In this document: one piece after another, positions 1-16,697 of the stretch
Position numbering within the stretch: position 1 is the stretch's first letter
Layout: each line of letters begins with the position of its first letter
Virus record (IMG/VR): IMGVR_UViG_3300031760_000026
Strand: one strand, 5' to 3'
Source of the DNA: a virus
Taxonomy: Duplodnaviria > Heunggongvirae > Uroviricota > Caudoviricetes
Length of the DNA: 64,000 bases
Notes under the pieces: model-generated
Database searches by the model: none
The model's input: only the letters and a program-made list of their open reading frames with translations
Told to the model about the DNA's origin: nothing
Translations under genes and position numbers: made by a program

Positions 1-4
1 ATGC

Positions 5-40
5 AGGAGGGGGGTGTATTTTTTAATGGCACCCTCCCCC
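5..40. other. GC-rich inverted repeat (GGAGGGGGGTG ... CACCCTCCCCC) at the window edge; possible terminator or structured element
   Basis: Near-perfect 11-bp G/C stem with a 13-nt AT loop seen directly in the sequence. It is the only GC-rich stretch in an AT-rich region. Confidence 0.3.
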
Positions 41-162
41 ATAAGCAGTATATCCCCCGAAAGATTCTATTTTTATATTATTTTAACCCGTTTTAATTAC
101 ATTTTTTATAAAAACTAATAAATTTCTTTGAATTAAGACAGGTATGGGCAATTACCTATTCA

Positions 163-396
163 TTATTTCTTAACTTTAATGTAATTACCATATAGATTGT
201 ACTTTAAAATCTCATCAATTGCTTGATTAACCACATAGTTCTCGTCTTCGGGGGACAGATCCGAAGAATCCTTTGCAATTCTAGCTATGTAGCCGCATGT
301 GTGATAGCCATGGCGTTCATCAAATGCAAACCATTCGTCGAATTGAGTAAAAGGATCATACGGATTGTCAGTGGTAGTCAACATGTAATGATCCAT
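163..396 (-). CDS. hypothetical protein
   Basis: 77-aa ORF with coherent, acidic/aromatic composition. No motif recognised. Confidence 0.35.
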   Translation of the reverse strand: MDHYMLTTTDNPYDPFTQFDEWFAFDERHGYHTCGYIARIAKDSSDLSPEDENYVVNQAIDEILKYNLYGNYIKVKK

Positions 397-659
397 ATTG
401 CATAGTCCTCGCGTTTTACACTATTCATAATTTCTCATTTAGGCATCGATTAAGTCATGCAATAAGCGATTTTAGAATTAATCCAAAAGCTATAGAAGCA
501 TTCCTGTTTTAAGGCATTCCTAAATATTTCATTGGCATTTAGTTAGAAAGCTTTCTTTTATTGGTCATCTCAAATAGATACTAAAAGGCATATAGAAACA
601 GATAAAAACTATTGCAAACCAAAATGGGTTATAAGAATTCCTAATAATAGGTGCCAATA

Positions 660-1312
660 AGTCAATTAAAAAATATCCATAAACCAACTTAGAGATCACT
701 CATAATAAGTGCAATAGCATAATGGTTATTAAAAGACTAGTTTAAAAATATCCATAAACTAGCTTAGAGAGTTCTTATAAAAGGTATTATGGACGCTAAA
801 AAGTCTATTTGAAAATATCCATAAACCAACTTAAAGAGCTCCCATAATAGATACTAAAAAGCCTGTTTAAAAATATCCATAAACTAACTTAAAGAACTCT
901 TATAATAGATACTAAAAAGTATGTTTGAAAATATCCATAAACCAACATAAAGAGTTTCTATAATAGATACTAAAAAGCCCGTTTGAAAATATCCATAAAC
1001 CAACTTAAAGGGTTCCTATAATAGATACTAAAAAGCCCATTTGAAAATATCCATAAACCAACTTGGAAAGCTCCTATAATAGATACTAAAAAGCCCGTTT
1101 GAAAATATCCATAAACCAACTTGGAAAGCTCCTATAATAGATACTAAAAAGCCTATTAAAATATCCATAAATGAACTTAAAAGATTCTAGTAGATGCAAT
1201 AAATGCCAAAAAAGGCCTAATTGAAAATATCCATAAGCCAACTTAAAGGATTCTAATAACTGTAATAGATACTAAAAGGCCAGATTGAAAATATCCATTA
1301 AGTTAATTATTC
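660..1312. repeat. tandem array of ~11 direct repeats with a ~59-60 bp period (unit approx AAAATATCCATAAACCAACTTAAAGAGCTCCTATAATAGATACTAAAAAGCCCGTTTGA); candidate iterons/origin or binding-site array
   Basis: The core AAATATCCATAA recurs at ~672, 757, 817, 877, 937, 997, 1051, 1110, 1167, 1227 and 1290. The units are contiguous with no spacers, diverge only mildly, and sit immediately 3' of the 915-aa RNAP-like gene. Confidence 0.85.
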
Positions 1313-4054
1313 ACTTAATTCTCTATTAAGAGTGGAAGTGGATACTCCAATCGCATCTGCAACTTCTGCATAAGTATAACCCTTATTAAGAAGAGTTCTA
1401 GCCCTCGATTTAGCAGCTGCAGACATTCCTTTATTAGCTCTAGGAGTCGCACGCTGTTTCAAATCATCGATATTAGTATACTTAAGAATTTCTGTCAGCA
1501 GATTGTCACTAATTGCTCCGGCTTGAATCGCTTTCCATTCTCTATCAGAAATGGTAATTGCAATGTTGTTTGGATTACTAGGATTTCTGCTTCTAGTGCC
1601 AACGGCTTTTCTGGCTCTTTCGATTTCCTGGGAACGAATCTTCTTTTTATCGTCTTTGTCCAAATTTGGATTTGCATTGATTCTCGCTGAACTTTTCACA
1701 CTAGCAATCATCTGAGCCTGGCGCTCCAAAGGAGAATTCTTTTTAGCAATATTAAGCTGGCTAATCAAAGAGGCTCTTTCAGAGGCATAAGCTTCTTTTG
1801 CAGAAGCATTTTGCTTAAGCCGGCCAGTATTAAGCATTTCTTTTCTAGCGCTATTAGCAAGACTTTTCAGCTTATTAGCATGATTAGCATAAATATCTTC
1901 AATGATCGTACCGGAGGACAGATCGTATGCGTTTCCACCTTTATTATAGATTTCAGTCATCTTGTCGCTCTTAATAGTTTTTGGCTGATAACTTCCATCT
2001 TTTTGTTGCTTCATCTTTCCGGTGGTTCTAAATATCTTATTGCCCTCAAGATAAGAAGCTTTCTCTTCATCGGTCATCTTGCTAAGAGACCTTACTTCTG
2101 TGCGATCAAGGACATACTCAGGAGACTTAGCTTTGGATATCAAAGTAGAAGATCCACCATTTGCTTTTCCTTGGTATTTCTTATTAAGCTCCTTGATACC
2201 ATTATCCTTTTCAGATGCGCGCCAATCCAGATTATGCTTTTCGGCATCGATGACAACCATTGAATGACGAACTGCCCTAGCAATTTCCTGATCTGTAGCA
2301 TTCCGAATTGTCATATCGGTTATAAGATTCGAAACTTTGCCCATCTGCATTTGCTTATGGAAACCAGTATCAGGACCGGTTTTAGGCATTCCTTCATATG
2401 CAGAATATCTTTCTTTAGGGTCAAAGTCTCTTAAGCCATAAAGTGGGGAAGATGGATTAACTTTCTCGCCAGCAATAATTTTAATTCCTTTGGTGGGAAT
2501 AACAGTTACAGTATCGCCGTCAAAATCTGCTCCGGACAATTGTTTTGCAACATTAGCGTTAATTCCAACTGCGGTTTTTGCATTGCCGAGAAGTTTTCTA
2601 CCTTCTTCATTATTGTTATTAACTCGAAGTCTCGGCATTTCAAAAGGACCAGCATGAGGATATCTTATTAAGACAACTTCTTCTCCGTTCTCATAATTAG
2701 GAGCATAGATTTCGGAGTCTTTAAGAGAACCAACTGGTAAAATAACGTGTGCGGCTTGTCTTGGGAGAGCAGCGGCTTTTAAATGCACCGCATTAGAATC
2801 GCAATCATCAGCGAATGATTCCAGAAGTTTACGCTTGATCGTTGGGTTAGTTAATGAACAAATCTCATCAAACTCCTGCTTCTTCTCTTTATAAGTAATA
2901 TCCAGCTGCTTCTTGGCCAACTGTGGAGGTTGCTTTGAAAGAAACTGAGAAGAAAGATTCTTAGACCACTTTTGCCAATCTTCATCTTCATTGACAATAT
3001 TTAAAGCTCCACGTTGATCTTTGATGGATGCTCCAAATGGGTTGCTTTCATCAACTTTACCAGTCGACTTATCCTTCTTCATTTCTTTAAGAACATCCAT
3101 TTTAGGAGTTCCTTCATGTTTATTGGTATTAAAGACAATATCCACGCCTTCAGGCATATTGTCCCCATACATCGCCATGCCCTTAAGATAGTGAGTGCCA
3201 TCGACAGCGATTCTCACCTGAGCATAGCGACTTTGGCCAATATCCAGATCCGGAACACCTTCACGAATCTCAATAACGCCATCTTTTTCAGAGCCGCCTT
3301 CTTCAGAATATCTTATTTGAACTCTATCAGAACTGATGCTTTGGGGCTTCTGAAAGGTCTTAACAACCTCGCCATAATCTTCAAACTTAATTCCTTCAGG
3401 AGAAGAAATCTGATCTCGATGTTGATACACTTCGGAGTACGGAACATCGTCTTTTGTAAGAACGATAACATTGGTTTTTTGAGTCGGATCACTTGCTTGA
3501 GGCACAGAGATTCGATGATAAGAATATCCATCCTGCTTAAGAAGCTCGACGGCCGCTTTCATCTGCTCTTTGGAAACATTAAGCTGAAGTTCAACACCTT
3601 CGCCAACATCCAAATATTTTCTTTCTTCAACTTGTTTTTTAAGCTCATCAGCAAGAAGTGTAGCTTTATCTCTACGAGCTTGGAAAGTAGGATCTAAATA
3701 ATGACGAACTGTAGATTCTGGAATTCCCAATTCTCTAGCAATCGCCATCTTGGAATTTCCAGCATCATATAAAGTCTGGACTCTGCGAATAGTATCTTTC
3801 TTCTGTTCATTCACAGCAATAGTGTGCATCGCTCGATACTGGCCAGTACTCATTCCAAAAGCTTCCGCAACTTGCTTATCTGTCAAACCTTGCTTCTTAA
3901 GATCGTTTGCTCTCTGAAGAAAGTTCTTATTTCGTTGAGGGTTTTTACCAGAGCCCCAAGGATATCTACCGGAATGCCTAGGGGTTCCATAATGTTCAGC
4001 ATCTTCTTCAACGTCTGGTAAATATCCATGATAGTTACTAAGCATCTTACTCAT
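1307..4054 (-). CDS. Large HTH-containing protein with an RNA-polymerase beta-prime-like double-psi beta-barrel catalytic motif (YonO/crAss-like non-canonical single-subunit RNAP or RNAP-like primase)
   Basis: The segment RYPHAGPFEMPRL...TAVGINANVAKQLSGADFDGDTVTVIP aligns with the beta-prime active-site region (R.P..H...NADFDGDQMAVH.P), with the DFDGD codons at about nt 2506-2532. There are sigma region-4-like HTHs near the N-terminus (LTDKQVAEAFGMSTGQY; MAIARELGIPESTVRHYL) and at the C-terminus (YTYAEVADAIGVSTSTLNREL). An AGGAG-type RBS lies upstream. Confidence 0.55.
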   Translation of the reverse strand: MSKMLSNYHGYLPDVEEDAEHYGTPRHSGRYPWGSGKNPQRNKNFLQRANDLKKQGLTDKQVAEAFGMSTGQYRAMHTIAVNEQKKDTIRRVQTLYDAGNSKMAIARELGIPESTVRHYLDPTFQARRDKATLLADELKKQVEERKYLDVGEGVELQLNVSKEQMKAAVELLKQDGYSYHRISVPQASDPTQKTNVIVLTKDDVPYSEVYQHRDQISSPEGIKFEDYGEVVKTFQKPQSISSDRVQIRYSEEGGSEKDGVIEIREGVPDLDIGQSRYAQVRIAVDGTHYLKGMAMYGDNMPEGVDIVFNTNKHEGTPKMDVLKEMKKDKSTGKVDESNPFGASIKDQRGALNIVNEDEDWQKWSKNLSSQFLSKQPPQLAKKQLDITYKEKKQEFDEICSLTNPTIKRKLLESFADDCDSNAVHLKAAALPRQAAHVILPVGSLKDSEIYAPNYENGEEVVLIRYPHAGPFEMPRLRVNNNNEEGRKLLGNAKTAVGINANVAKQLSGADFDGDTVTVIPTKGIKIIAGEKVNPSSPLYGLRDFDPKERYSAYEGMPKTGPDTGFHKQMQMGKVSNLITDMTIRNATDQEIARAVRHSMVVIDAEKHNLDWRASEKDNGIKELNKKYQGKANGGSSTLISKAKSPEYVLDRTEVRSLSKMTDEEKASYLEGNKIFRTTGKMKQQKDGSYQPKTIKSDKMTEIYNKGGNAYDLSSGTIIEDIYANHANKLKSLANSARKEMLNTGRLKQNASAKEAYASERASLISQLNIAKKNSPLERQAQMIASVKSSARINANPNLDKDDKKKIRSQEIERARKAVGTRSRNPSNPNNIAITISDREWKAIQAGAISDNLLTEILKYTNIDDLKQRATPRANKGMSAAAKSRARTLLNKGYTYAEVADAIGVSTSTLNRELSE

Positions 4055-4608
4055 TCTCCTTCATCCTGAATTTGAGACAATCTCTTATCAAAGAAAATAA
4101 TTTTATCCATAATCGTAAGAATGTCTTCCGGCTCAGGATTCAACACGGAAATTTCATCCGACTGGTAAATGCGGAGTTCCATTTCAATCTGATTTGGATC
4201 AACACTATACTCTAAACAAAAAAGAGCAGCATAAATCATAAGCTGCTCCATATGTGCCGGAGTTATTCCAGATTTCAGATCGTGTATCCGCAAAAAGTTG
4301 TTTCTAAAAGAAATAGAATCTGCAGTCCCAAAGCAATTATTTGAATAATATAAAGGCTGTTCGGGGGTCATCTTGAAACCAATTGCGTCATTAACATACA
4401 TATTCAATGTCTTTTTTGACTTCGGCAATTTGATTCCAAGCTCAATCGCTTTTCTAGCAAAATCATGAAGCTCGGTCCCTCTTTGGATAGCCAAATTACT
4501 CTGGTATGCAGATATCAATTTCTCTTCATCATAGTTTAGCCAATGATACTTAGATGCGCTTAGAAATGCATGTTTTCCTTCTAGGTTGAAGTGCTTGTTG
4601 AAGTTCAT
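4051..4608 (-). CDS. PD-(D/E)xK family nuclease (Cas4/RecB/YqaJ-like)
   Basis: Motifs GTELHDF ... GTADSISF ... LRIHDLKSG match the D...(D/E)xK signature. The start overlaps the upstream VRR-NUC ORF. Confidence 0.5.
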   Translation of the reverse strand: MNFNKHFNLEGKHAFLSASKYHWLNYDEEKLISAYQSNLAIQRGTELHDFARKAIELGIKLPKSKKTLNMYVNDAIGFKMTPEQPLYYSNNCFGTADSISFRNNFLRIHDLKSGITPAHMEQLMIYAALFCLEYSVDPNQIEMELRIYQSDEISVLNPEPEDILTIMDKIIFFDKRLSQIQDEGE

Positions 4609-4870
4609 TCAGTACCTCCGCCTCATTCTCTGGAAATATAAAGCGAGCAAATGACATTTGATTTGCTTGCTCTACATAGTAATCTTGATTGCTTTGATGA
4701 ATCTCATTTTTAGACTTTTTGCACTCAAGGAATGCCCATCGATCTTCATAAAGAATTGTAAGATCTGGAATCCCTTGAATATAGTTTGGATCATTTTTTA
4801 AAACTATGCATCCAGGAAATTCATCTTTAATTTTTTTAATCAAGTTACTTTGAAACTTGTTTTCTTTCAT
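4550..4870 (-). CDS. VRR-NUC-like PD-(D/E)xK nuclease
   Basis: GIPDLTILYEDRWAFLECKKS has a D..ExK arrangement typical of VRR-NUC. Small protein (106 aa). Confidence 0.45.
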   Translation of the reverse strand: MKENKFQSNLIKKIKDEFPGCIVLKNDPNYIQGIPDLTILYEDRWAFLECKKSKNEIHQSNQDYYVEQANQMSFARFIFPENEAEVLNELQQALQPRRKTCISKRI

Positions 4871-4944
4871 AGTCTTTTCCGCTCCGAAATATAAAAGGAG
4901 CTGCCATATCTCCTCTATTATAAGGAATGTATTTCTTGCGAATT

Positions 4945-6177
4945 TTAAGAATATACAAAACCACTTTCGTTGAAGTTTTTCTTCTGTTTAAGAGCTCTCG
5001 AGATAGCCAAGTCCAAAGGGCAACTGGATTTTAGCCGATAGTAATATAAATCTTTGTATGGAGTGTTCATCCGATCTATTCTTCCGGCCGACTGAACCAT
5101 AATTTTGTAAGAATAGTTCAATGAATAAAAAATTATCGTGTCGGTCTGTATGCAATTCCAGCCTTCTGCTCCGGCAGTATACTGCACCAAATATACCCAC
5201 TTTTCACCATTTGGAATGTACTCATGTTTATGCCCATTCCATTCGGCGACCTGAACACCGGGGCCATAATCAATAGATTTTAAAATATCCAATTCGTAAT
5301 CATAATTATAGAAGATTATTGTCCTAGGATGATTCTTCCTCAGTTCTAATATGGCTTCTACTCTACTTGGATCACTATTAATTACTCTCCTTGCTGTATA
5401 ACATAGTTCTGCAGCATTTACGATTGGGGAATCTGAAAATATATTCCATCTCTTTCCCATTACAAACTTATATGTTTCTTTGTCATAATCGACGGTAATT
5501 GTTTCATGATGTGTGACTGTTGGACGAGTATAGTCCATATTGATAAGGATCTTATTTCTTAGTTTAATCAATCGACCTTGGTCCAAATATCTATCAACTT
5601 GTGGAAACTTGGCAAACCTCTTGTATACAACATGCCTGGTTATGAACTCGCTTTTATTCTTGTAAAAACCATTTGCTACAAACACCGGCATGTAATCCAT
5701 CCATGTATCACCTGGAGTTGCGCTTAATAATATCCATCTATTCCTTTTGGCTATTTGCCAGAAAGATTTGGTCCACGCTCCAGATCCGACGACCCTTTGT
5801 TCATCAAATATAAAGAATGAGTCTTTCACATTAATGTACTTCTTAATGTTGTTCCAAGAATCAATCACCAATGACATCTGACCAAAATATAAAGAATCTT
5901 CATTATTTGAAATTAGAAATGGGGAGCATTCTTTTTCCCACTCTTTGGTATCTCTTTTTCTAGCAGTGGTAATAATATAAAGGTCTTTCGGGTTCTTCAT
6001 TGGATAATAGTCATCTTTTAAGCCCTTTGAAAACCCATCAAGTATGCCATTACACTCTTTTGTGAAAAAATATGCCAATGACGTTCTTGATTTGCCAGAC
6101 CCAACTCCTCCGCAAAGAATAGATCCATTACCCAATCGATCAACAGCATCCCATTGGTAATCATATAAAAAACTCAT
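4945..6177 (-). CDS. SF2 DEAD/DExH-box helicase
   Basis: Walker A is GGVGSGKS, motif II is FIFDEQRV (DExx) and motif III is LLSATPG. Helicase C-terminal-like region follows. Confidence 0.8.
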   Translation of the reverse strand: MSFLYDYQWDAVDRLGNGSILCGGVGSGKSRTSLAYFFTKECNGILDGFSKGLKDDYYPMKNPKDLYIITTARKRDTKEWEKECSPFLISNNEDSLYFGQMSLVIDSWNNIKKYINVKDSFFIFDEQRVVGSGAWTKSFWQIAKRNRWILLSATPGDTWMDYMPVFVANGFYKNKSEFITRHVVYKRFAKFPQVDRYLDQGRLIKLRNKILINMDYTRPTVTHHETITVDYDKETYKFVMGKRWNIFSDSPIVNAAELCYTARRVINSDPSRVEAILELRKNHPRTIIFYNYDYELDILKSIDYGPGVQVAEWNGHKHEYIPNGEKWVYLVQYTAGAEGWNCIQTDTIIFYSLNYSYKIMVQSAGRIDRMNTPYKDLYYYRLKSSCPLDLAISRALKQKKNFNESGFVYS

Positions 6178-6195
6178 TTTTAATTAGACCTTTCT

Positions 6196-6233
6196 GAAAA
6201 AAGAAAAAGGGCTGCTTAGTTTAGCAGCCCTTT
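6196..6233 (-). terminator. rho-independent terminator downstream of the SSB-like gene
   Basis: Hairpin GGGCTGC-TTAGTTTA-GCAGCCC followed on the minus strand by a T-rich run (TTTTTCTTTTTT). Confidence 0.6.
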
Positions 6234-6243
6234 AAAATATCTT

Positions 6244-6732
6244 TTAGAATGGAGTGTCCTCATCCAGGCCATCTTCTTCAAGATTCCTGTATTTCTTCTC
6301 GAATTCATTCTCGACAATCGTAACATACATGTTCTTGACATACGCCTTAATTCCGCCCTTTCCATTTACTTCCCAAGTATAAGGACGAACAATAATATCC
6401 ACATTCTCAATCTCAGCGTAATCCAGAACCGCGACTGTGTCCTCATTCAGCTCGGTTTTCTTTCCTCCAGAAACAAGCCAAATCTTAGGCGGGAAATTAT
6501 CAAAAGCTACGGCAACCTGAAGGTATGCCTGCGGCTCATCATCCGGATCTCGAGGATTAAGATACTTCACATTCCAGCCAATATCCTTAAGATCCTCAGC
6601 GACATCGTTATCAAGAACAAGGCAGAAATTGCGCTTGCCCTTTGCATTAAACTTGCTTTCCTTACCTGCAAAATTTCTGAAAATGATTCTTGCATTCTCC
6701 ACAGAAATATTAGAAACTCTCTGATTAGCCAT
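6244..6732 (-). CDS. ssb: single-stranded DNA-binding protein-like (acidic C-terminal tip LDEDTPF)
   Basis: The C-terminus EEDGLDEDTPF resembles the conserved SSB tail (DDDIPF). It lies in the replication module and has a strong RBS. Confidence 0.45.
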   Translation of the reverse strand: MANQRVSNISVENARIIFRNFAGKESKFNAKGKRNFCLVLDNDVAEDLKDIGWNVKYLNPRDPDDEPQAYLQVAVAFDNFPPKIWLVSGGKKTELNEDTVAVLDYAEIENVDIIVRPYTWEVNGKGGIKAYVKNMYVTIVENEFEKKYRNLEEDGLDEDTPF

Positions 6733-6766
6733 AATTAATAGCTCCTTTCAAAAATATAAATAATTA
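6733..6766 (-). promoter_or_regulatory. example of the recurrent upstream motif TTATATTTTTGAAAGGAG-N(7-10)-ATG (promoter-like element fused to the RBS)
   Basis: On the minus strand: TTATTTATATTTTTGAAAGGAGCTATTAATT ATG. The same motif precedes ~20 genes in the window (see findings). Confidence 0.5.
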
Positions 6767-9700
6767 AGAGGCAAATGCCTCGAAATCTCCATACTGAGAA
6801 ATCGAAGTAATTGCCTCATCTACCATTGCCGCATAATATCTTCGGTCGATGTCATCTTCTTTATGCAGAGTCTTTACCATTTCGGACTCCATCCAACGAT
6901 ATCCCTTCGTCCCCGTGGCTGCGCTATACTTACCATTCTTTTCTCTCAAAAGAATTCCGCCGCCACATCCTGGTTTAATTGGGCAGAAAGAACCGGCTTT
7001 ACCAACAAATTGGTAGTTATGACCAGAACAAATCCGAGAATATAAATCTACAGCTTCTTTTAATGCTGACTGATACTCTTCGTTCTGGTATGAAATATCC
7101 ATGTCTCCAGCAGCAAATGCTTTCGCAGTATTCTGAATGCCAATTAGATCAAATCCATGTTCCTTACAGATTTTATCAAGATGCTTCTCATACTCGCTAA
7201 CATCTGGAAGATTCTCATTCATGTCCAAATATAAGGCCGAGGTTACAGTTTTAGTTTCGCACATGTCTCGGAATCCGATTGCAGATTTACTAAACAATGT
7301 TTTGAATACATATGGAACCTGAAACTGTGTGCCTGTTGCAGTCCAAGCGGTTTTTACACTTTCGCCAGTAGGAAGCTCAAAGTCATGCTCGCCATCATCA
7401 TACTTAGCAATATAAACTGCATCATTAACTAAGCACATCTTGGCATATGTGGCCTCATGCTCAAAAGTATATCCATACTGCTTTCCATAATTCATAACAA
7501 ACTCAATGATCTCTGGAGTCGCATCAGGAATCTTGATTGAGTCTGTTTTAATATGCGCCACAGTATAGCCACGATCCTGAACCTCATGCTTCAAATTAAT
7601 CATGAATAAGGCTCCACGTTTAGCCACGATATTATCAATGTTGCGAGGATCTTTGAATGGATTCTCAAATGTTGCCGATGTCAAACCATATACACTATTA
7701 ATCGCAATCTTTAATGCATATGACAAAGCCTTTGCCTGCTTTCCATCAGTTAAATATTTAGAAAGTTTTCCACCAAACAGATTTCCTGCTGCCTCAAAGT
7801 CTTTATGCTTAATATAAATTCGAGCTTGCTTAATGTCACTGAAGTTCTTTGTATACGGACCAAACAGATTTAGGCACTCAATACTCGTCGGGTGCATAGA
7901 AGCGATGTCTAGCAGTGCCACATTGGAGTACATGCCAGGCTCAGAATATACATAGCCACCTTCACCAGTTTCCTCACCTCTATAAGTACTCTTTCCATGA
8001 TCATACTTATACCCAGGAAACATTTCTGAAAGATCAGTATACACAAACTGAGATTGGGGCTTCTTTTCTGATCCAAATATAATTCTAGTAGTATGCATGT
8101 TTGTCGTGGCATTCACATTCAAACCGGAAATATCCGCCAGAATCTCTCTTGCCACAAAATCCTCGTGACGTGCATTAAATACTGCTTCAGTAGCAATGAC
8201 ATCATTATCGCAATACTCAGCCACCTTCTCCCAAAGTTCTTCTGGAACAGGCTGATCCCACGGAAGACCGAGTTCCTGATGATGAATATCAAGTTCGATT
8301 TCCCACTTTTTCAAGCTCTGTTTCTTAGCACAGAAGTCATATACATCTGTGTAAGAAATATCATACGCTTCTCCAAAGAAGGCATTAGAACTTCCGCCAA
8401 TAATCCTTTGAGACAGCTCATAAATCTGAGATTCGGAATATCCAAGCATTCTGGCATAAAGAATGTGGTTATCGTAGCGTCGACAGTTAAAACCAACAAG
8501 TTTAAATCTAATCAGATCCTCAATCTCATTTGGAGACGGATTGATCATTCTATTTACCGGATTTCCTTCTCCTTCTTTCTTCCAGTTAACAAGAAGAAGA
8601 TTAGGGAAAACCTCGACATCATAGAATATCAAGAAGTCTTCCAAAGATTCCATTGCTTCTGATGGTTCATCTGACTTAAAGTGCATTTGATCAACCATCT
8701 TTAAACAATCAGATGCATGGTGACTACTCTTAGCCGCAAAAGTCATAATATAAGGTCTAAGATTTGTCACATCATAATGCATTCCACTTTCGTACGCGTC
8801 GTTTAAAACCTTCTTAATAAACTCACAGCTAGTAACTGTCGCATGTGGAGCATACTCTTTTGCCAGACTTCTCCGAATGATTGTTCTTAGGGCTTTCTCA
8901 TTTTTAATAGATTCAAAATTTACCACTTTGTCCTCCTTTCGAAGTGGTAAGCCAGAACTGATAGTTGCAAATATCAATGGCGCACACTTGGTAAGCTTAC
9001 GTCTCAATGAAGACTTACCACTAAACACCTTAACTTCGATTCCATCCTCATAGATTCTACTAAGCTTACTTACATCGCCATTGTAAATATAATGCAGATG
9101 GATTCCTTGCCCGCTCTTGCTAAGCTCAGCGTAAGTTTTAGGCCATTTAGAAGCTGCCTCGATGTTCCTTTCAAGAGACTTGTTGCCTTCGCGATCCTTT
9201 AAATCGAAATCGATTACGATATGATTCTCAGGCACTCTAACATAGTGGAGCTTGCTAGTGTCAAGATCTGATAGTCTTGTTGTAACTTCATCCCACTTTT
9301 TCCAAGGCCCCTCAGTGTCTGGGTTAGCATATTGAGCTAAAGCTGTAGCCATCTCCAAATCAAACGGAGACTTAGTCTCAACAAACTGAAGCCAAGTTCG
9401 ATCTTCAGAATTGCCTAGCTCTTCAGCCCCTGAAATATCTTGCTCATTAGATTGCTCCTCCTCGATGCCAAACTTACTAAGCTTTAAGCCGCTATAATAG
9501 TTTCTAACTTGATTGTCATCCTTATCTCTAGCTCTATCATCAAAATGTTCAAAATAGTTTTTAAGCTCTTCTTTAAATAGCCTCTTGCTATATGGATAAG
9601 GAACTTTAGCTTCTTCACAGTATTCCTTGTATCTAGTCCATGCTTGCTGAAGAGTAACTCCATCCGCCTGCCTAAAATCAAAGAAATTTTCCTCCATATA

Positions 9701-10759
9701 GTTAAAGAAGTCGTTAGTAGCTCCAAGCATTGACTTAGGAATATAATTTTCATATGCTTCTTTATCTTCTTCATATACTTTAAGGCAATGATATGCAATT
9801 GCCCCAAGTTCGAAGTCGATCTTTTTCATAAGTTGATTATATCTCTTATAAGGAATCTTCTTTTCAGTAGGGGAAACATCGATAAGCCTTCGAATAATAC
9901 CTGATTTACTATCTGTAATCCTGACTGGACTATTTGTTCCCATAAACAGCATTGCATGGAATCTCGTAGAATATAATTTAGAATACTTCTCATTCACGGT
10001 CATTTCTTCATGGGAAACCAAACTATTTAAACGAGTATTATCTTCAATTCTACTCAAATTACCATCATGCTGAATTCCAACTAATGGATTATTCTTGAAT
10101 GGTTCGAGAGCAAAAGCGTCCGTGCTACTTCCAAGTGCTTTGGCATCAAACGAAGCACAATATCCATTAAATAACTTTTGGATAATATTCAAGATAGTTG
10201 ACTTGCCAGTACCGGCGCTTCCATAAAAAACTAGAAACTTTTGAATTAACTTGCTATCACCATTCACAACAGATCCAATAGCCCATTCGATCTTATGTCG
10301 CTCTGGTGCAGAATATAAAGTTCCAACTAATTCATCCCAAGCTTCGATACTTCCTTCTTCCAATGCATAAGGCAATCTCATACTCGCATAGTCTTCTCTA
10401 TTTACCGGACTATTTGCAAATATCAATTTCTCATCAAGATTATGAAAGTTATCTCTCATTTGCTTCTGGCAATACTTGTGCCACTTGTCAATCATCCCAG
10501 TATCGCCATTCCACAAATATAAAACTTTTGCATCTGCCAAAGCAGGATTATTTTTCTTGTATTGATCTAACTCATGGTCGATTAAGTCTACTACATCATC
10601 CTGAGATTTAGACCATAAACCTTTATTCTCATCCCATATAGCATAAAAATCGCCGCCACGAATCATTAAATCTTTTGATGCCTTTGTGATAAATACTGGA
10701 TAGATTTCTGCAGGACCAGTCTTTTTCTGCTGTCGCCAAGTAACTTTTAGAAAATCCAC
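6764..10759 (-). CDS. Replicase fusion: SF3 (P4/D5-type) helicase, archaeo-eukaryotic primase (AEP), 3'-5' exonuclease and family B DNA polymerase
   Basis: SF3 motifs are Walker A FYGSAGTGKST and motif C FMGTNSP (aa ~180-280). AEP motifs are HIVIDFDLKD (DxD) and SGQGIHLHYIY (sxH) at aa ~520-560. Exo I is FYDVEVFPN and Exo II is YCDNDVIA. PolB motif A is DIASMHPTS, motif B is KIAINSVYG and motif C is HIKTDSIKI. Confidence 0.85.
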   Translation of the reverse strand: MDFLKVTWRQQKKTGPAEIYPVFITKASKDLMIRGGDFYAIWDENKGLWSKSQDDVVDLIDHELDQYKKNNPALADAKVLYLWNGDTGMIDKWHKYCQKQMRDNFHNLDEKLIFANSPVNREDYASMRLPYALEEGSIEAWDELVGTLYSAPERHKIEWAIGSVVNGDSKLIQKFLVFYGSAGTGKSTILNIIQKLFNGYCASFDAKALGSSTDAFALEPFKNNPLVGIQHDGNLSRIEDNTRLNSLVSHEEMTVNEKYSKLYSTRFHAMLFMGTNSPVRITDSKSGIIRRLIDVSPTEKKIPYKRYNQLMKKIDFELGAIAYHCLKVYEEDKEAYENYIPKSMLGATNDFFNYMEENFFDFRQADGVTLQQAWTRYKEYCEEAKVPYPYSKRLFKEELKNYFEHFDDRARDKDDNQVRNYYSGLKLSKFGIEEEQSNEQDISGAEELGNSEDRTWLQFVETKSPFDLEMATALAQYANPDTEGPWKKWDEVTTRLSDLDTSKLHYVRVPENHIVIDFDLKDREGNKSLERNIEAASKWPKTYAELSKSGQGIHLHYIYNGDVSKLSRIYEDGIEVKVFSGKSSLRRKLTKCAPLIFATISSGLPLRKEDKVVNFESIKNEKALRTIIRRSLAKEYAPHATVTSCEFIKKVLNDAYESGMHYDVTNLRPYIMTFAAKSSHHASDCLKMVDQMHFKSDEPSEAMESLEDFLIFYDVEVFPNLLLVNWKKEGEGNPVNRMINPSPNEIEDLIRFKLVGFNCRRYDNHILYARMLGYSESQIYELSQRIIGGSSNAFFGEAYDISYTDVYDFCAKKQSLKKWEIELDIHHQELGLPWDQPVPEELWEKVAEYCDNDVIATEAVFNARHEDFVAREILADISGLNVNATTNMHTTRIIFGSEKKPQSQFVYTDLSEMFPGYKYDHGKSTYRGEETGEGGYVYSEPGMYSNVALLDIASMHPTSIECLNLFGPYTKNFSDIKQARIYIKHKDFEAAGNLFGGKLSKYLTDGKQAKALSYALKIAINSVYGLTSATFENPFKDPRNIDNIVAKRGALFMINLKHEVQDRGYTVAHIKTDSIKIPDATPEIIEFVMNYGKQYGYTFEHEATYAKMCLVNDAVYIAKYDDGEHDFELPTGESVKTAWTATGTQFQVPYVFKTLFSKSAIGFRDMCETKTVTSALYLDMNENLPDVSEYEKHLDKICKEHGFDLIGIQNTAKAFAAGDMDISYQNEEYQSALKEAVDLYSRICSGHNYQFVGKAGSFCPIKPGCGGGILLREKNGKYSAATGTKGYRWMESEMVKTLHKEDDIDRRYYAAMVDEAITSISQYGDFEAFAS

Positions 10760-10789
10760 ATGTTATCCTCCTTTCCGGTCATCACGGAC

Positions 10790-11045
10790 CAAAAATCACT
10801 CATGTGACACTTTTTACACTTTTTCGCTTCTACTTTATATATAAATATTAATTTTTCCTCACGCAATGATAATAAAAAAGTGTCACAAGTGTCACAAAAC
10901 ACCCAAAAACTTTAATTTTACCCCATTTTTACCCTAAAATACCCCATTTTGAGGTCAAAATTGACCATTTTTGAGATATTTTTGTGACACTTTTTTCTGT
11001 CACAAAGTGCTCAAAAGTGTCATAAGTGTCACAAAACCTAATTTT
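10790..11045. promoter_or_regulatory. intergenic cluster of at least 7 copies of the palindrome GTGTCACA/TGTGACAC upstream of the replicase gene; candidate operator array and promoter
   Basis: Copies at ~10803, 10877, 10887, 10983, 10998, 11018 and 11027 (for example AAAAGTGTCACAAGTGTCACAAAAC) in an ORF-free 300-bp region. Confidence 0.6.
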
Positions 11046-11055
11046 TCTCAATTTT

Positions 11056-11568
11056 TCACCACATATACTTACTCTTCAAGTAGTAGTTCAGTTGATACCA
11101 CAACTCAATTTTTCGCATATCTCTTCGGAATCCTTCGACAAAGAATGGCCCGCCATATCCATCTCTATCATACTTTCTATCTAAAAATCGCTTCACAATT
11201 TCATCGAATCTGTCAATATCAAACGACCAATCATCGAGTGCATCTAGTCCTAAATTTTCAATCATATCCCAAAACCAAATGCTAGTTCTGTCACCTTCGT
11301 CAGGGTCGTACATAATATAATTTTCACACCCCATAGCAAGTGCCAGCATCATTTCGAATAGAGAACAAGGGCCCTCCTTTTCACAGAAGAGCCCAGTCTC
11401 ATCCTCATAGATTCCTCTTAATTGCTCGCCATCAACAGCTCGATTTCCGTCATTTGAAACCGACCAATAGAAGTCCTCAGAATATAATGCGAGTGTCATT
11501 TTCTGGTATAAAATACGCCGTTCGTAATCTGGGATAGCTACCTCACATAGCCACTCATAGTAGGTCAA
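11056..11568 (-). CDS. hypothetical protein
   Basis: 170-aa ORF, Trp/Tyr-rich. No motif recognised. Confidence 0.4.
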   Translation of the reverse strand: MTYYEWLCEVAIPDYERRILYQKMTLALYSEDFYWSVSNDGNRAVDGEQLRGIYEDETGLFCEKEGPCSLFEMMLALAMGCENYIMYDPDEGDRTSIWFWDMIENLGLDALDDWSFDIDRFDEIVKRFLDRKYDRDGYGGPFFVEGFRRDMRKIELWYQLNYYLKSKYMW

Positions 11569-12326
11569 TCATACTCCCCGGAGAGCATCGCAAAGTCTCG
11601 GTACTGTCGAATTACCTCGTAATCAGCACTTCTTTTTTCATTGCGAATATAAACCACATCGGGTTCAAACTCCCCAATTCTATCCAAGTTTTTCATTCCT
11701 ACAGTTCCATTTACATCCTCAATTATCTCTTCGGTTTCGGATGCAAGAACCCCATCATCATATAAGAACAGCGTAATTTTATCGAAATAAGGCTCTTCAT
11801 TCACAAATTTATCAGATGCTGTACTGTCCTTATCGTCCTCTAAAACGTAAGGTCCAGAGGCATCTTGTGATGGTGTAGTATCGAGAATATCAGGATCATC
11901 TTCGTCTTTCTCATTCTCATAAGTAATCTCAAGATCCTCATTTTCATCATACCCATTGTGAATATCTTTAGCCTTTGGCGGGTTAGAAAACAGGTTGTAC
12001 TCAGTTTTATGTGTATTTACATATACGCCATCATAACCGTTTTCTTTAGAAATATTACTATTTGTTATCATTGCCTCTTTTTCTCTCGCATTACGGATTG
12101 CCCGATCACGAGGAGATTCATTTTCATTTGCGACACTTTTTTCTGAATTCTTTTCGACGTTATTTTCAGAATTTCTGTCATTTCCGTCATATTTAGCGGC
12201 ATAAACCTGCTTTACACTGGCGATTTCAGCCTCAATTCGCTGTTCCATGCGTCTATTCATGACAACATAGGTGCCGATGCAGCCACCGATTACACCGCCT
12301 ACAAAATATAAAATTTTCGAGTCCAT
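11565..12326 (-). CDS. hypothetical membrane-anchored acidic protein
   Basis: N-terminal TM helix (ILYFVGGVIGGCIGTYVVM) followed by a long acidic, low-complexity region. Confidence 0.4.
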   Translation of the reverse strand: MDSKILYFVGGVIGGCIGTYVVMNRRMEQRIEAEIASVKQVYAAKYDGNDRNSENNVEKNSEKSVANENESPRDRAIRNAREKEAMITNSNISKENGYDGVYVNTHKTEYNLFSNPPKAKDIHNGYDENEDLEITYENEKDEDDPDILDTTPSQDASGPYVLEDDKDSTASDKFVNEEPYFDKITLFLYDDGVLASETEEIIEDVNGTVGMKNLDRIGEFEPDVVYIRNEKRSADYEVIRQYRDFAMLSGEYD

Positions 12327-12397
12327 ACTCCTTGCCTTTCTGTATTAAGTTGTGTTTTTATTACGTTTTGATAACAGGATGTAATCAAAATATCTAA

Positions 12398-13324
12398 TTA
12401 AATCATATCCCAAATCGGTCCATCTACATTGAAGTTTAGATGAATGTTCTGCTTGCACAAGTCACTATCTGTCCGATAATCACGAATGAAACCGTCCAAA
12501 TAACCGAAGTCAATGTAATCATCTCCAGCTCCCTTGATCCAACCACAAACCTGGCCAGCAGGAGTACGCTTCAGACCAAGATGATCCAAGACCTCATTAA
12601 GAAAGACATGGCCTCTTGCCTGGAGCAGATCATTAAAGTAATTCTGACTATTTCTAAGAAACATTTCGCTATAATCCGGATTAGCATTCCAAGTCAGAGG
12701 GGCAGTATGGCGATTAAAATCGAATTCATAAGGAGATTTACTGCCATTTCCGAACACCATATTATGGCCGTTCTTTGTAACAATTTCCCCATTTTCATCC
12801 TCAATTTGAATATCTTTTTCAACTTTTCCGTCAGCCATGAGAACTTTTTCCGCATCTTCGCCAATAAGCTCCTTAACACGCCCTCTATAGCCCGTAAAAG
12901 CCTCGTTAAGCGCTCCTAGGGCTGCCGTCGTATTGAGATACCTGTTATTTAAAATGCCGTGAGAAAGCAAAATAAGGGCAATAGAGGCCACTTCCAAACC
13001 GACCACAGGAGCCAGTGCACGAGCAACTCTCCATACCATTTTGTTATAGGCACGCCAAGTCATCTGCTTGACTTCCTTAACTTCTTCCTTCGTAGGATTC
13101 TCTTTTTTGTCCAGTTCATTACGCTTGGTCTGAATATCATCCAGATCCTTATGGGCATCGTCAATGGCCTCACGAATCTTCTTAGCTCTCATGACGCCAA
13201 CAACGACAGCGCCAATACCACAAGCAACACCACCAGCAAGAGCCAACTCAGGACTAATCTTGCGGAGTTTCATATATCCCTTAAACATTACAGTTTTCAC
13301 TGTGCCAAAATTAATAGCGTTCAT
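12398..13324 (-). CDS. hypothetical membrane protein
   Basis: Two predicted TM helices (GGVACGIGAVVVGV; LAPVVGLEVASIALILL) plus a soluble domain. Confidence 0.4.
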   Translation of the reverse strand: MNAINFGTVKTVMFKGYMKLRKISPELALAGGVACGIGAVVVGVMRAKKIREAIDDAHKDLDDIQTKRNELDKKENPTKEEVKEVKQMTWRAYNKMVWRVARALAPVVGLEVASIALILLSHGILNNRYLNTTAALGALNEAFTGYRGRVKELIGEDAEKVLMADGKVEKDIQIEDENGEIVTKNGHNMVFGNGSKSPYEFDFNRHTAPLTWNANPDYSEMFLRNSQNYFNDLLQARGHVFLNEVLDHLGLKRTPAGQVCGWIKGAGDDYIDFGYLDGFIRDYRTDSDLCKQNIHLNFNVDGPIWDMI

Positions 13325-13355
13325 AAATATAATTCCTTTCTACACAAATTCTTAA

Positions 13356-14006
13356 TTACTCAAGAGCCATGCAGCGTGGGAGATCCACAAAATATCCACG
13401 ACTCGCATTTCCAATCACACGAGCACCACGCAGATCTGTCCAACCCCACTTATTATCAGTAAACTCAGTTGTCACACCGGCAAGATCATAAAAGTCTGCA
13501 ACGGTGACCTGCTTGTAGTCACCAAGGATCTCAAGCATGTTATCAAGCACTAATTCAGCCTCTCCACGGCTCTCAAAGCGAATATCATCAAATTCATGAA
13601 CCCCTCTGGAACGAATGTCACGAGGCATACGCTCGCTTCTAGCGCCAGAGTTAAAATATCCACCATAGTTTACTTTGGAGCCCGTAGAGGAGCCTCCAGA
13701 GCGTCTAGGAGGCCTTCTAACAGCCTCTCCGAAGAATATCATGCCGACTGCCGAATTAATCAGATCAGCAATGTTCTCCTTGATAGCCGGGACCAGCACA
13801 TCATACAGCAAATATGATTTGACGTCCCCAACATTCTCATCTACAAACACGTCAAAGAATCTTCGCCCAATACTTTTCTTAGTCCTGGTCGCCGATCCCT
13901 GAACCACCTTCTCAACTTTCTTTGCCACGGCGCTTTCCTTAGCCTCTTGCTCCTCATGGTATTTACGAGAGTTTGGCTTGAAATCCTGGATATCAACTTC
14001 TGCCAT
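13356..14006 (-). CDS. hypothetical protein
   Basis: 216-aa ORF with coding-like composition. Basic/Gly-rich middle region. Confidence 0.4.
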   Translation of the reverse strand: MAEVDIQDFKPNSRKYHEEQEAKESAVAKKVEKVVQGSATRTKKSIGRRFFDVFVDENVGDVKSYLLYDVLVPAIKENIADLINSAVGMIFFGEAVRRPPRRSGGSSTGSKVNYGGYFNSGARSERMPRDIRSRGVHEFDDIRFESRGEAELVLDNMLEILGDYKQVTVADFYDLAGVTTEFTDNKWGWTDLRGARVIGNASRGYFVDLPRCMALE

Positions 14007-14110
14007 AATTACATTTCCTCCTTATAAGTTTTTGGCAAAAATTAAAGAGGCTGGGAATTCCCAACCCCTCTCATTATTAACTATGTATTTTTTGCGAATT
14101 ACATCGCGGT

Positions 14111-14929: not shown

Positions 14930-14964
14930 ATATGCTCTCCTTTCTTATGGTCTTGCCAACTTAT

Positions 14965-16279: not shown

Positions 16280-16323
16280 TTGTTTACCTCCAAAATATAA
16301 TTAGAAAAAGAAAGAGGGATGCA

Positions 16324-16647: not shown

Positions 16648-16697
16648 GATTCAAATATAATTCCTGTCATTATAGACGGTGTAAAAGTTGCGGGTTA

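What the first reader, a model, noticed from the sequence alone, without database searches (positions are those of the whole stretch)
660..1312. Eleven contiguous ~59-bp direct repeats 3' of the RNAP-like gene: iteron/origin-like array
Seen directly: units recur every 59-60 bp (one unit has an 85-bp spacing), with the conserved core AAATATCCATAAACCAACTT and ATAGATACTAAAAAG. The copies are graded rather than identical, as expected for protein-binding iterons and not for recent slippage. There are no unique spacers, so it is not CRISPR. Its position at the start of the replication/RNAP module suggests an origin of replication or a clustered binding-site array for the adjacent HTH/RNAP-like protein.
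Basis: seen in the sequence. Interest (0 to 1): 0.7.

Follow-up and report, generated by a model that had tools for sequence, protein, structure and literature searches.

The report
Amplified cluster of a polar phage signal
The eleven repeats are real, but they are probably not a replication origin: they are a local pile-up of a short one-directional DNA signal (core GATATTT) that this gut prophage and many relatives carry about 150 times on the sense strand of their early genes, placed between an unusual phage RNA polymerase gene and the end of the genome.

Summary
Eleven head-to-tail units (58 bp in the middle, 56-75 at the edges) lie at window 624-1316. Their only invariant block is ATGGATATTTT on the gene (-) strand.

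Context: window base 1 is the right cohesive end of a temperate 1706/FP_oengus-like phage. The array fills the gap between the last early gene (an HTH-flanked RdRP-like two-barrel RNA polymerase) and a conserved 77-aa gene, 0.66-1.3 kb from the end.

Relatives share only the ~10-nt core. They carry 0-11 copies, before or after the small gene, and a second tandem array arose independently. A near-identical phage has 10 units.

The core belongs to a genome-wide signal, K-ATATT(T):
- Early region: 129 sense copies against 1 antisense.
- Codon-aware nulls expect about 26-37 sense and 8-11 antisense.
- The same bias appears in FP_oengus and many Clostridial prophages, but not in virulent relatives.

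An iteron origin is poorly supported; a better origin candidate lies at 10.76-11.06 kb.

My best guess (about 0.35) is a battery of promoter-like start or loading sites for the adjacent polymerase, firing toward cos and the late genes. Rivals are a stoperator-like barrier, cos accessory sites, and priming or nuclease signals. The reader of the signal is unknown.

The parts
624..1316 (-). Tandem array of 11 units (u1 1253-1316, u2 1187-1252, u3 1131-1186, u4 1073-1130, u5 1015-1072, u6 957-1014, u7 899-956, u8 841-898, u9 774-840, u10 699-773, u11 624-698). The invariant cores ATGGATATTTT lie on the - strand at 1298-1288, 1234-1224, 1168-1158, 1112-1102, 1054-1044, 996-986, 938-928, 880-870, 822-812, 755-745 and 680-670.
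573..603 (-). Relic part-unit (AATAGATACTAAAAGG... on the + strand) beyond the last full unit.
   Evidence: family D4
1307..4054 (-). 915-aa HTH-flanked RdRP-like two-barrel RNA polymerase. It has two N-terminal HTH units, a C-terminal HTH and a DFDGD catalytic loop. It is the last gene of the early/replication block.
   Evidence: published analysis of the family in 10.1101/842583
163..396 (-). Conserved 77-aa gene (phrog_4303). In all relatives it lies between the polymerase gene and cos.
1..45 (.). Right cohesive end. This is a G/C-rich inverted repeat ending ...CCCCCCTCCTGCAT (reverse complement of window 1-14). Independent assemblies stop at this same base.
4000..40000 (-). Early/replication region carrying the same signal family genome-wide. 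T[GT]ATATT occurs 129 times on the sense strand and once on the antisense strand, at 12-17 copies per 4 kb.
47047..48135 (+). Tyrosine integrase, the only large gene on the opposite strand. It shows the phage is temperate and marks the upstream limit of the early region.

Best explanation
The array is a recently amplified battery of one short, orientation-specific cis-signal (core GATATTT; here ATGGATATTTT). Nothing else in the 58-bp unit is conserved between lineages.

Shown:
- The same signal family, K-ATATT(T), is strongly enriched on the sense strand of the early region.
- It is purged from the antisense strand.
- It is clustered in the non-coding DNA at the early-region/cos boundary in several lineages, twice as independent tandem arrays.

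Inferred:
- The signal is a promoter-like start or loading site for a strand-specific machine. The most likely reader is the phage's own HTH-flanked two-barrel RNA polymerase, encoded immediately upstream.
- The eleven copies would launch transcription toward the 77-aa gene and, on circular or concatemeric DNA, across cos into the late operon.
- Copy number would be tuned by unequal exchange.

Which protein reads the signal, and whether reading starts RNA synthesis, is not shown.
For: - All 11 cores, and all copies in relatives, point the same way as the genes.
- In the early region the sense count is 129, against 26 (codon-order permutation) or 37 (synonymous shuffle) expected. The antisense count is 1 against 11 or 8.4 expected, and was never <=1 in 300 shuffles. 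Wrong-way copies therefore appear harmful, as expected for a self-sufficient start signal.
- Canonical TATAAT shows no such bias (17:43), so this is not the host sigma-A -10 element.
- The signal stands alone: there is no information from -45 to +30 around it.
- It is enriched 2.6-2.9x at 0-10 and 20-40 nt upstream of start codons.
- The first copy lies 0-23 nt after the polymerase stop codon in every array-bearing lineage. It is also present as the single copy in L009 and L148.
- Array flank variants match the genome-wide variants of the same lineage: AAG in L005, TGG in L144, TG in FP_oengus.
- Independent tandem amplifications exist: window 58 bp, L174 51-63 bp. Copy number is polymorphic, 10 versus 11.
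- The polymerase carries DFDGD and matches phrog_4291 over its full length.
- Precedents from papers: the related single-chain polymerase YonO starts the SPbeta late operon from one site upstream of yonK (PMC5467207; that this site lies a short way downstream of the yonO gene is my own recollection of the SPbeta gene order). Two-barrel phage polymerases use short AT-rich single-element promoters in about 40-120 copies, some internal, for example AR9 AAATATATATTAT-(6N)-G and AACA-(6N)-TA/G (PMC5312081). P23-45 is a further example (PMC10770324).
Against: - About 72% of genome-wide copies lie inside genes at about 1 per 280 bp. That is far denser than any known promoter set, and there is no +1 signature.
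- The late region and the polymerase gene are 3-4x poorer in the signal.
- Virulent relatives with the same polymerase (P092, Kardesai) lack the signal.
- Several prophages also lack it.
- The HTH recognition helices are invariant across lineages with different flank variants, and in lineages without arrays.
- Many close relatives have no copy between the polymerase gene and cos.
- No transcription data exist.
Confidence: 0.35

Rival explanations
1. Stoperator-like barrier. K-ATATT(T) would be an asymmetric site for a phage DNA-binding protein (a repressor or similar) that blocks elongating RNA polymerase in one orientation and so silences the early region. The array would then be a strong insulator that stops read-through from the early block across cos into late and lysis genes.
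For: - The phage is temperate (integrase), as is FP_oengus.
- Virulent relatives lack the signal.
- There are many same-orientation copies, concentrated in the early lytic genes.
- The array sits exactly at the early/late junction.
- Lineage-specific flank variants resemble immunity specificities.
- From my own knowledge: mycobacteriophage L5 and Bxb1 stoperators are about 30 asymmetric 13-bp sites, all oriented with transcription.
Against: - A barrier site in the reverse orientation should be neutral, yet antisense copies are purged about 10-fold.
- The 8-nt site is short, and most copies are intragenic.
- The sigma-A-like early promoter next to the integrase carries no copy.
- Integrated prophages without the signal exist, for example L205, L211 and L215.
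Confidence: 0.2
2. Single-strand-level polar signal. The sites would either be lagging-strand priming sites for the phage primase-helicase-polymerase, or Chi-like sites that attenuate a helicase-nuclease entering at the right end. The array would be a high-probability cluster near that end.
For: - The signal lies on the strand whose 3' end is at the right cohesive end. This is the correct orientation for a Chi-like site met by a nuclease entering there, and it is the lagging-strand template if replication runs with transcription.
- The dense, dose-like distribution inside genes fits a per-site probability event.
- The array lies within 1.3 kb of the end.
- A Cas4-like exonuclease, a helicase and an annealing protein are encoded next door.
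Against: - Neither model predicts the purge of antisense copies or the 3-4x lower density in late genes.
- A host Chi is unlikely. An all-A/T 8-mer would be rare in a host genome as GC-rich as F. prausnitzii (host GC content is my recollection). Unrelated F. prausnitzii phages Mushu and Epona carry none.
- P092 and Kardesai share the replication and recombination genes but not the signal.
Confidence: 0.12
3. Packaging accessory sites. The repeats would bind the small terminase subunit or another cos-binding protein upstream of the cleavage site, helping to recognise or terminate at the downstream cos.
For: - The arrays always lie within about 1.3 kb upstream of cos.
- A [GT]ATATTTT arm flanks the conserved CCGG dyad 25-30 nt inside the left end in 25 of 43 loci.
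- From my own knowledge: T7 couples polymerase pausing at the concatemer junction to packaging.
Against: - A gene separates the array from cos in the window.
- Arrays are absent from many relatives with the same cos.
- This model does not explain the about 150 genome-wide copies.
- Presence of K-ATATT next to the cos dyad is not associated with genome-wide density (Mann-Whitney p=0.67).
- Unit-to-left-end similarity is only marginal (p about 0.03).
- P092 has the dyad without ATATT.
Confidence: 0.12
4. Iteron-type origin, or origin-linked fork barrier. An initiator would bind the eleven repeats and open nearby AT-rich DNA.
For: - There are eleven co-oriented direct repeats in 24-33% GC non-coding DNA.
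- They lie next to the replication/recombination gene block.
Against: - The core is not confined to one locus.
- The array is absent, or on the other side of the small gene, in close relatives.
- Copy number is polymorphic.
- There are no DnaA boxes.
- The skew is uninformative.
- A better candidate exists: all five exact TGTGACAC copies in the 64-kb window (seven sites counting two one-mismatch copies) fall within 230 bp, in both orientations, together with AAAATGGGGTA repeats and an AT-rich stretch, directly upstream of the polymerase-helicase gene.
Confidence: 0.08
5. No dedicated function. Under this reading, a unit that happened to contain one copy of the genome-wide signal expanded by slippage in dispensable terminal non-coding DNA and is neutral.
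For: - The central units are nearly identical, and copy number varies between isolates.
- Arrays are dispensable in relatives.
Against: - Between lineages only the core is conserved while the spacers turn over. L144, for example, has 9 cores with unique spacers at 63-66 bp.
- Two independent tandem arrays and several dispersed clusters all keep the same strand and place.
- Across 60 loci, the 1.5 kb after the polymerase gene carries 2.27 sense against 0.38 antisense copies per kb.
Confidence: 0.08

Closest known systems
Single-element promoters of non-canonical two-barrel phage RNA polymerases (AR9 early AAATATATATTAT-(6N)-G and late AACA-(6N)-TA/G; phiKZ; P23-45), and the single YonO late promoter of SPbeta
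   Same: - They are short, AT-rich, stand-alone motifs co-oriented with genes, present in tens to more than 100 copies, some inside genes.
- The polymerase gene belongs to the same broad two-barrel class.
- The YonO late promoter drives a long late operon; from my own recollection of the SPbeta gene order it lies a short way downstream of yonO.
- Sources: PMC5312081, PMC10770324, PMC5467207.
   Different: - Here the density is about 8-fold higher and most copies are intragenic.
- There is no conserved start nucleotide.
- No transcript ends have been mapped.
- Tandem amplification of a unit is not described for those systems.
Stoperators of Cluster A mycobacteriophages (L5, Bxb1)
   Same: Both are asymmetric sites in many copies, in one orientation relative to transcription. 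Both occur in temperate phages and have lineage-specific variants.
   Different: - Stoperators are 13-14 bp, number about 30, and are mostly intergenic. The same site also overlaps the early promoter.
- Here the site is 8 nt, numbers about 150, and is mostly intragenic. It is absent from the early promoter, and antisense copies are purged.
Iteron origins and tandem site arrays of plasmids and viruses (lambda ori, P4 ori/crr, F sopC 12 x 43 bp, EBV FR)
   Same: They are tandem direct repeats, each carrying one protein-sized site, in non-coding DNA near replication genes.
   Different: - Those sites are locus-restricted and conserved with their binding protein.
- Here the core is genome-wide and polar, and the array is dispensable among relatives.
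Polar over-represented chromosome signals (Chi, KOPS/SRS)
   Same: They are stand-alone 5-8-mers with strong strand polarity. For KOPS, enrichment in one orientation is combined with avoidance of the other.
   Different: - Those signals are host-encoded, G-rich and chromosome-wide.
- This one is specific to a phage clade and to one region, and no candidate translocase is apparent.
T7 class II pause/termination signal at the concatemer junction
   Same: It is a short sequence-specific signal followed by a T-run, read by a phage polymerase close to the genome end.
   Different: - The T7 signal is a single site and belongs to an unrelated polymerase family.
- A signal enriched in the sense orientation inside genes cannot be an efficient terminator.

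Membership tests
Iteron-type replication origin | Several direct repeats, each a site for an initiator protein | tested here: inconclusive
   There are eleven direct repeats with an invariant 11-nt core. No initiator protein has been identified.
Iteron-type replication origin | Sites restricted to the origin (or a few control loci) | tested here: not met
   GATATTT occurs 81 times on the sense strand outside the array. T[GT]ATATT occurs 153 times sense against 5 antisense in the window.
Iteron-type replication origin | Conserved in relatives that share the replication module | tested here: not met
   L004, L146, L147, L149 and L160 have no copies between the polymerase gene and cos; L009 has a single copy. 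In L005, L153 and L174 the cluster lies after the small gene.
Iteron-type replication origin | Adjacent unwinding element and host initiator (DnaA) boxes | tested here: not met
   No DnaA box with up to 1 mismatch occurs at 400-1400, and window-wide counts are at chance. The whole 100-1300 stretch is 21-41% GC with no distinct element.
CRISPR array | Repeats of 24-48 nt separated by unique spacers, with cas genes nearby | tested here: not met
   In the window the units are contiguous with no spacers. In L144 the conserved part is only about 10 nt. No cas genes appear among the neighbours.
Terminal repeat / cos or pac site | Lies at the physical end, or contains the cleavage site | tested here: not met
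   The end is at window base 1, where independent contigs L162, L163, L164, L143 and L146 stop at the same base. The array begins 624 nt inside, with a gene in between.
Terminal repeat / cos or pac site | The same sequence is present at both genome ends | not testable with these tools
   The left end of this genome lies outside the 64-kb window. Related left ends (L157, L004, L005) carry no such array.
Promoter set of a phage-encoded RNA polymerase | The genome encodes its own polymerase | tested here: met
   The protein matches phrog_4291 over its full length (E=0), has a weak Pfam RdRP hit, and carries a DFDGD loop. See also 10.1101/842583.
Promoter set of a phage-encoded RNA polymerase | Motif co-oriented with genes, with antisense copies counter-selected | tested here: met
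   The early region has 129 sense copies and 1 antisense copy. Both depart from codon-aware nulls.
Promoter set of a phage-encoded RNA polymerase | Motif placed upstream of transcription units, with a defined start site | tested here: inconclusive
   There is 2.6-2.9x enrichment just upstream of start codons, but 72% of copies are intragenic and there is no +1 signature.
Promoter set of a phage-encoded RNA polymerase | Primary transcript 5' ends at the motif; polymerase-dependent initiation in vitro | not testable with these tools
   No transcriptome or biochemistry is available.
Stoperators (Cluster A mycobacteriophage type) | Many asymmetric sites in one orientation relative to transcription, in a temperate phage | tested here: met
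Stoperators (Cluster A mycobacteriophage type) | The same site overlaps the early lytic promoter (true operator) | tested here: not met
   The TTGACA-17-TAATCT candidate promoter between the integrase and the first early gene has no K-ATATT copy.
Stoperators (Cluster A mycobacteriophage type) | Sites of 13-14 bp, mostly intergenic | tested here: not met
   The information content is confined to 8 positions, and 72% of copies lie inside genes.
Host Chi-like sites | Motif set by the host recombination nuclease, and hence shared by other phages and DNA of the same host | tested here: not met
   F. prausnitzii phages Mushu and Epona have GATATTT at 1:0 and 1:1, against 41:1 in FP_oengus over the same kind of span. 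Host chromosomal DNA itself was not available.

The most novel reading that the evidence does not exclude
K-ATATT(T) would be the complete, single-element recognition signal of the uncharacterised HTH-flanked RdRP-like two-barrel polymerase family. It would form a 'polar code' written about 150 times into the early region of hundreds of Clostridial prophages. The terminal arrays would be promoter batteries or polymerase landing pads on the DNA end next to cos, presumably the last to be packaged and the first to be ejected. If the enzyme is virion-borne, as one GenBank note on ReqiPepy6 hints (unverified), the array could even tether polymerases to the leading end of the injected DNA.
Probability: 0.3. 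Interest if true: 0.8.

Novelty: new variant of a known kind. Interest (0 to 1): 0.62.

Why it matters
The polymerase next to the array is the signature gene of a very large phage supercluster. This includes actinophages, Lactococcus 1706-like phages, Faecalibacterium FP_oengus, and at least 323 relatives in GTDB species genomes. Nobody knows what the polymerase transcribes or what it recognises.

A stand-alone 8-mer that is enriched 3.5-5-fold on one strand, purged from the other, and locally amplified next to the polymerase gene is a concrete, testable candidate for its recognition signal. If the signal is read by something else, it is evidence for a new kind of polar control element.

FP_oengus is cultured, so 5'-end RNA sequencing could settle the matter quickly.

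In practical terms, these arrays break metagenome assemblies: contigs L001 and L002 end at the start of the array. They also mark the right genome end.

Tried and rejected
- Megablast and blastn of the region against 50,697 phage records found no match.
- An exact 15-mer scan of IMG/VR gave only single chance hits and no second array.
- An exact-sequence look-up of the polymerase found nothing on record.
- The first single-protein scan of GTDB genomes found nothing. The alignment-based scan worked.
- Rfam found nothing at 1-1500 even at E<=1.
- RNA folding of the whole array and of single units in six lineages gave z-scores near 0. The weak AUGGAUAUU/AGUAUCUAU hairpin is specific to the window.
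- Sigma-70-type promoter scan: TTCAAA-16-TATTAT occurs in several units, but the hexamers are not conserved between lineages.
- There is no -35-like or any other signal within -45 to +30 of the genome-wide copies, so a two-element promoter for the phage sigma factor is not supported.
- The DnaA-box resemblance (ATATCCATA against TTATCCACA) was rejected.
- A CsrA-type GGA sponge was rejected because most lineages lack GGA.
- The motif does not co-vary with the C-terminal or N-terminal HTH recognition helices.
- There is no association between K-ATATT next to the cos dyad and genome-wide density (p=0.67).
- The array unit's similarity to the left-end leader is only marginal.
- P092's top skewed word, TAAAGAT, is evenly spread across the genome and looks codon-driven (Lys-Asp); it is not a polar signal.
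- The maximal-order Markov expectation is uninformative because the sub-words are themselves enriched.
- The ReqiPepy6 paper that might confirm virion association is not held in the library.

Full report
**1. The observation**

The array is real.
- Tandem Repeats Finder reports one array at 796-1298 with period 58, 8.5 copies and 83% matches.
- The gapless family search finds 11 copies at 645-1309, with start-to-start spacing 75, 67, 58, 58, 58, 58, 58, 56, 66, 64.
- The 17-mer TTTATGGATATTTTCAA with up to 3 mismatches occurs 11 times in the 64-kb window. All hits are in the array and all on the - strand, against 0.91 expected.
- Aligning the units shows one invariant block, ATGGATATTTT, with graded flanks.
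- Units 4 and 5 differ at one base.
- The largest spacing is 75 bp, not 85.

**2. Where it sits**

Essentially all genes of the window are on the - strand, and the GC skew is uniformly negative.

The array begins 8 nt after the stop codon of the 915-aa gene at 1307-4054. This protein:
- matches phrog_4291 ('RNA-dependent RNA polymerase') end to end;
- has HTH units at both ends;
- gives a weak Pfam RdRP hit;
- carries the DFDGD metal-binding loop of two-barrel polymerases.

A preprint reached the same conclusion for the FP_oengus homologue, using HHpred and motif analysis (10.1101/842583).

Upstream lie a Cas4-like exonuclease, a helicase, an annealing protein and a 1331-aa helicase-primase-polymerase. 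Downstream lies a conserved 77-aa gene (phrog_4303) at 163-396.

In about 250 cultured phages the polymerase homologue is the last large gene, 300-500 bp from the right genome end. These include Arthrobacter, Gordonia, Streptomyces and Rhodococcus phages and Lactococcus P092/P078. A 3' cos overhang is annotated for ReqiPepy6.

**3. The physical end**

Window base 1 (ATGCAGGAGGGGGG...) is the reverse complement of ...CCCCCCTCCTGCAT. Three independent assemblies that encode the identical 77-aa protein (L162, L163, L164) stop at exactly this base, and so do L143 and L146.

In circularly permuted or prophage copies the sequence continues. It runs through a 10-nt CGCnnnnnnn stretch, then an A-run, a TCYCCGGRGG dyad, a T-rich arm and the small-terminase leader. 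This architecture is conserved in 43 loci and, in simpler form, in P092.

The array is therefore 0.66-1.3 kb inside the right cohesive end. It is neither a terminal repeat nor cos itself.

The phage is temperate. It encodes a tyrosine integrase on the opposite strand at 47047-48135, with an endolysin beyond it. The gene layout is that of FP_oengus.

**4. What relatives show**

Only about 10 nt is shared between lineages, always on the gene strand:

| Lineage | Core | Copies | Notes |
|---|---|---|---|
| Window | ATGGATATTTT | 11 | 58-bp tandem units |
| L003 / L144 | CTGGATATTY | 9 | every 63-69 bp; spacers unique in L144 |
| L143 | TAAGATATTT | 5 | |
| L157 | TAAGATATTT | 3 | |
| L005 / L151 | AAAGATATTTG | 8 / 6 | placed after the small gene |
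| L153 | ATTGATATTT | 7 | |
| L173 | ATGGATATTT + TATTGATATTG | 3-4 + 3 | |
| L174 | TTAAAGATATTTC | ~10 | independent tandem array, 51-63-bp units |

- The first copy lies 0-23 nt from the polymerase stop codon wherever a cluster exists.
- L009 and L148 keep just that one copy.
- L004, L146, L147, L149 and L160 have none before cos.
- L162, the same phage from another sample, has 10 units.
- Contigs L001 and L002 break at the start of the array.

The 58-bp unit is thus a recent and unstable amplification. What is selected is the core, its strand and its place.

**5. The core is part of a genome-wide polar signal**

- Outside the array, GATATTT is the most strand-asymmetric 7-mer of the window: 81 on the sense strand against 4 on the other.
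- The family T[GT]ATATT occurs 153:5 over the window. It is found at 12-17 copies per 4 kb between 4 and 40 kb (early/replication genes), 1-6 per 4 kb in the late region, and none in the polymerase gene, where GGATATT occurs instead.
- In the early region the count is 129:1.
- Codon-order permutation expects 26 sense and 11 antisense. A synonymous-codon shuffle that keeps the proteins expects 37 and 8.4. None of 300 shuffles reached <=1 antisense copy.
- The signal stands alone, with no information from -45 to +30.
- 72% of copies are inside genes, preferentially as GAT-ATT or TAT-ATT. There is modest enrichment just upstream of start codons.
- Canonical TATAAT is 17:43, so this is not avoidance of host promoters.

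FP_oengus (49% GC) shows the same pattern: TGATATTT is 33:0 and GATATTT is 42:1, mostly in its early half.

Across 60 prophage or MAG loci of Lachnospiraceae, Ruminococcus, Oscillospiraceae and others, the counts per kb are as follows:

| Region | Sense/kb | Antisense/kb |
|---|---|---|
| 10 kb upstream of the polymerase gene | 3.62 | 0.69 |
| Polymerase gene | 1.13 | 0.48 |
| Next 1.5 kb | 2.27 | 0.38 |
| Late genes | 1.04 | 0.54 |

- Flank variants of a lineage's array match its genome-wide copies.
- The virulent relatives P092 and Kardesai lack the signal.
- So do the unrelated F. prausnitzii phages Mushu and Epona.
- I found no mention of the motif in the searchable literature.

**6. Interpretation**

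Any model must explain four things: a stand-alone 8-mer, positive selection for sense copies, negative selection against antisense copies, and clustering at the early-region/cos junction.

A promoter-like start or loading signal does this most simply. Wrong-way copies would make antisense RNA, right-way copies are useful or harmless, and a battery next to the polymerase gene would drive the small gene and, across cos, the late operon.

There are precedents:
- YonO starts the SPbeta late operon at one site upstream of yonK, which by my own recollection of the SPbeta gene order lies just downstream of yonO (PMC5467207).
- The AR9, phiKZ and P23-45 two-barrel polymerases use short AT-rich single-element promoters in large numbers, some internal (PMC5312081; PMC10770324).

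Against this model:
- The density is extreme and mostly intragenic.
- Late genes are relatively poor in the signal.
- Relatives with the same polymerase lack it.
- The three HTH recognition helices do not co-vary with it.

I therefore give this model about 0.35.

**7. Rivals**

- **Stoperator-like barrier (about 0.2).** It fits the temperate life style, the early-region bias and the junction position. It does not fit the antisense purge, the short intragenic sites, or the motif-free early promoter.
- **Priming or Chi-like signals (about 0.12).** These fit the strand relative to the right end and the dose-like density. They do not fit the purge or the early/late contrast. A host Chi is unlikely on composition and on the evidence from Mushu and Epona.
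- **Cos accessory sites (about 0.12).** These are suggested by proximity to cos and by the [GT]ATATTTT arm of the left-end dyad in 25 of 43 loci. But that arm is not associated with genome-wide density (p=0.67). Arrays are dispensable, and unit-to-leader similarity is marginal.
- **Iteron origin (about 0.08).** This fails on locus restriction, conservation and accessory elements. The 10.76-11.06-kb intergenic region has a far more origin-like repeat architecture.
- **Neutral slippage (about 0.08).** This is contradicted by conservation of core, strand and place across lineages whose spacers have turned over.

**8. Verdict**

The origin reading is not supported. The 'clustered sites for the neighbouring polymerase' reading is still open.

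The array itself is a lineage-specific, unstable amplification. The more interesting result is the polar K-ATATT(T) signal it belongs to, which appears to be undescribed and is directly testable in a cultured phage.

Noticed in passing
window 10760-11056 (intergenic, upstream of the 1331-aa helicase-primase-polymerase gene): This is a dense repeat region. All five exact copies of TGTGACAC in the 64-kb window, plus two one-mismatch copies, lie within 230 bp, in both orientations. It also has three AAAATGGGGTA-like repeats and an AT-rich stretch. It is a more conventional candidate for an origin or operator region than the array.
   Followed up: partly
window 1-45, and loci L004, L005, L009, L157, L173-L252, L016/L166: The cos architecture is conserved from Clostridial prophages to Lactococcus P092. 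It comprises a G/C-rich inverted repeat ending ...CCCCCTCCnnnCAT, a 10-nt CGCnnnnnnn stretch, an A-run, a TCYCCGGRGG dyad and a T-rich arm. Five independent contigs end at the same base as window position 1.
   Followed up: yes
window 26453-26995 (-): The phage encodes a sigma-70-family factor (Sigma70_r2 at 1e-11, weak r4; phrog_351). The phage thus carries both a sigma factor and its own polymerase. No homologue was detected in FP_oengus by tblastn.
   Followed up: partly
window 20431-22029 (-), and 41044-41103 and 41196-41267 (-): There is a Ro60/TROVE-domain RNA-binding protein. Two weak tRNA-like Rfam hits were not called by ARAGORN and lie about 19 kb from the TROVE gene. They could be tRNA-like (Y-RNA-type) partners, but this was not examined.
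   Followed up: no
window 49063-50469 (-): There is a cluster of five tRNA genes (Met, Gln, Gly, Leu, Pro) between the lysis genes and the integrase.
   Followed up: no
window 47047-48135 (+) and 46592-46900 (-): A tyrosine integrase lies on the opposite strand. It faces a TTGACA-17-TAATCT candidate early promoter and a first early gene with a Cro/C1-type HTH. No divergently transcribed repressor gene is evident.
   Followed up: partly
window 58133-58719 (-), inside the 607-aa ORF 57517-59340: There is a 318-bp tandem duplication (1.8 copies, 78% identity) within a structural, probably tail, gene.
   Followed up: no
window 12398-13324, 14111-14929, 27778-28704 (-); 13356-14006 and 18205-18732 (-): There are paralogous early genes of unknown function: phrog_2152 three times and phrog_4079 twice.
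   Followed up: no
locus L021 (ReqiPepy6, NC_023735.1), feature CL92_gp048: The GenBank note on the polymerase homologue reads 'similar to Lactococcus phage 1706_gp75, structural protein'. This hints that the enzyme may be virion-associated. The source paper could not be read.
   Followed up: partly
loci L173-L252: The polymerase family has 323 relatives in GTDB species genomes. Many are integrated prophages in isolates, including Hungatella hathewayi, [Ruminococcus] torques ATCC 27756, Blautia faecis, Cuneatibacter caecimuris (two copies), Enterocloster lavalensis and Lachnospira hominis. The closest to the window is a Blautia MAG from sheep abomasum (63% identity).
   Followed up: partly
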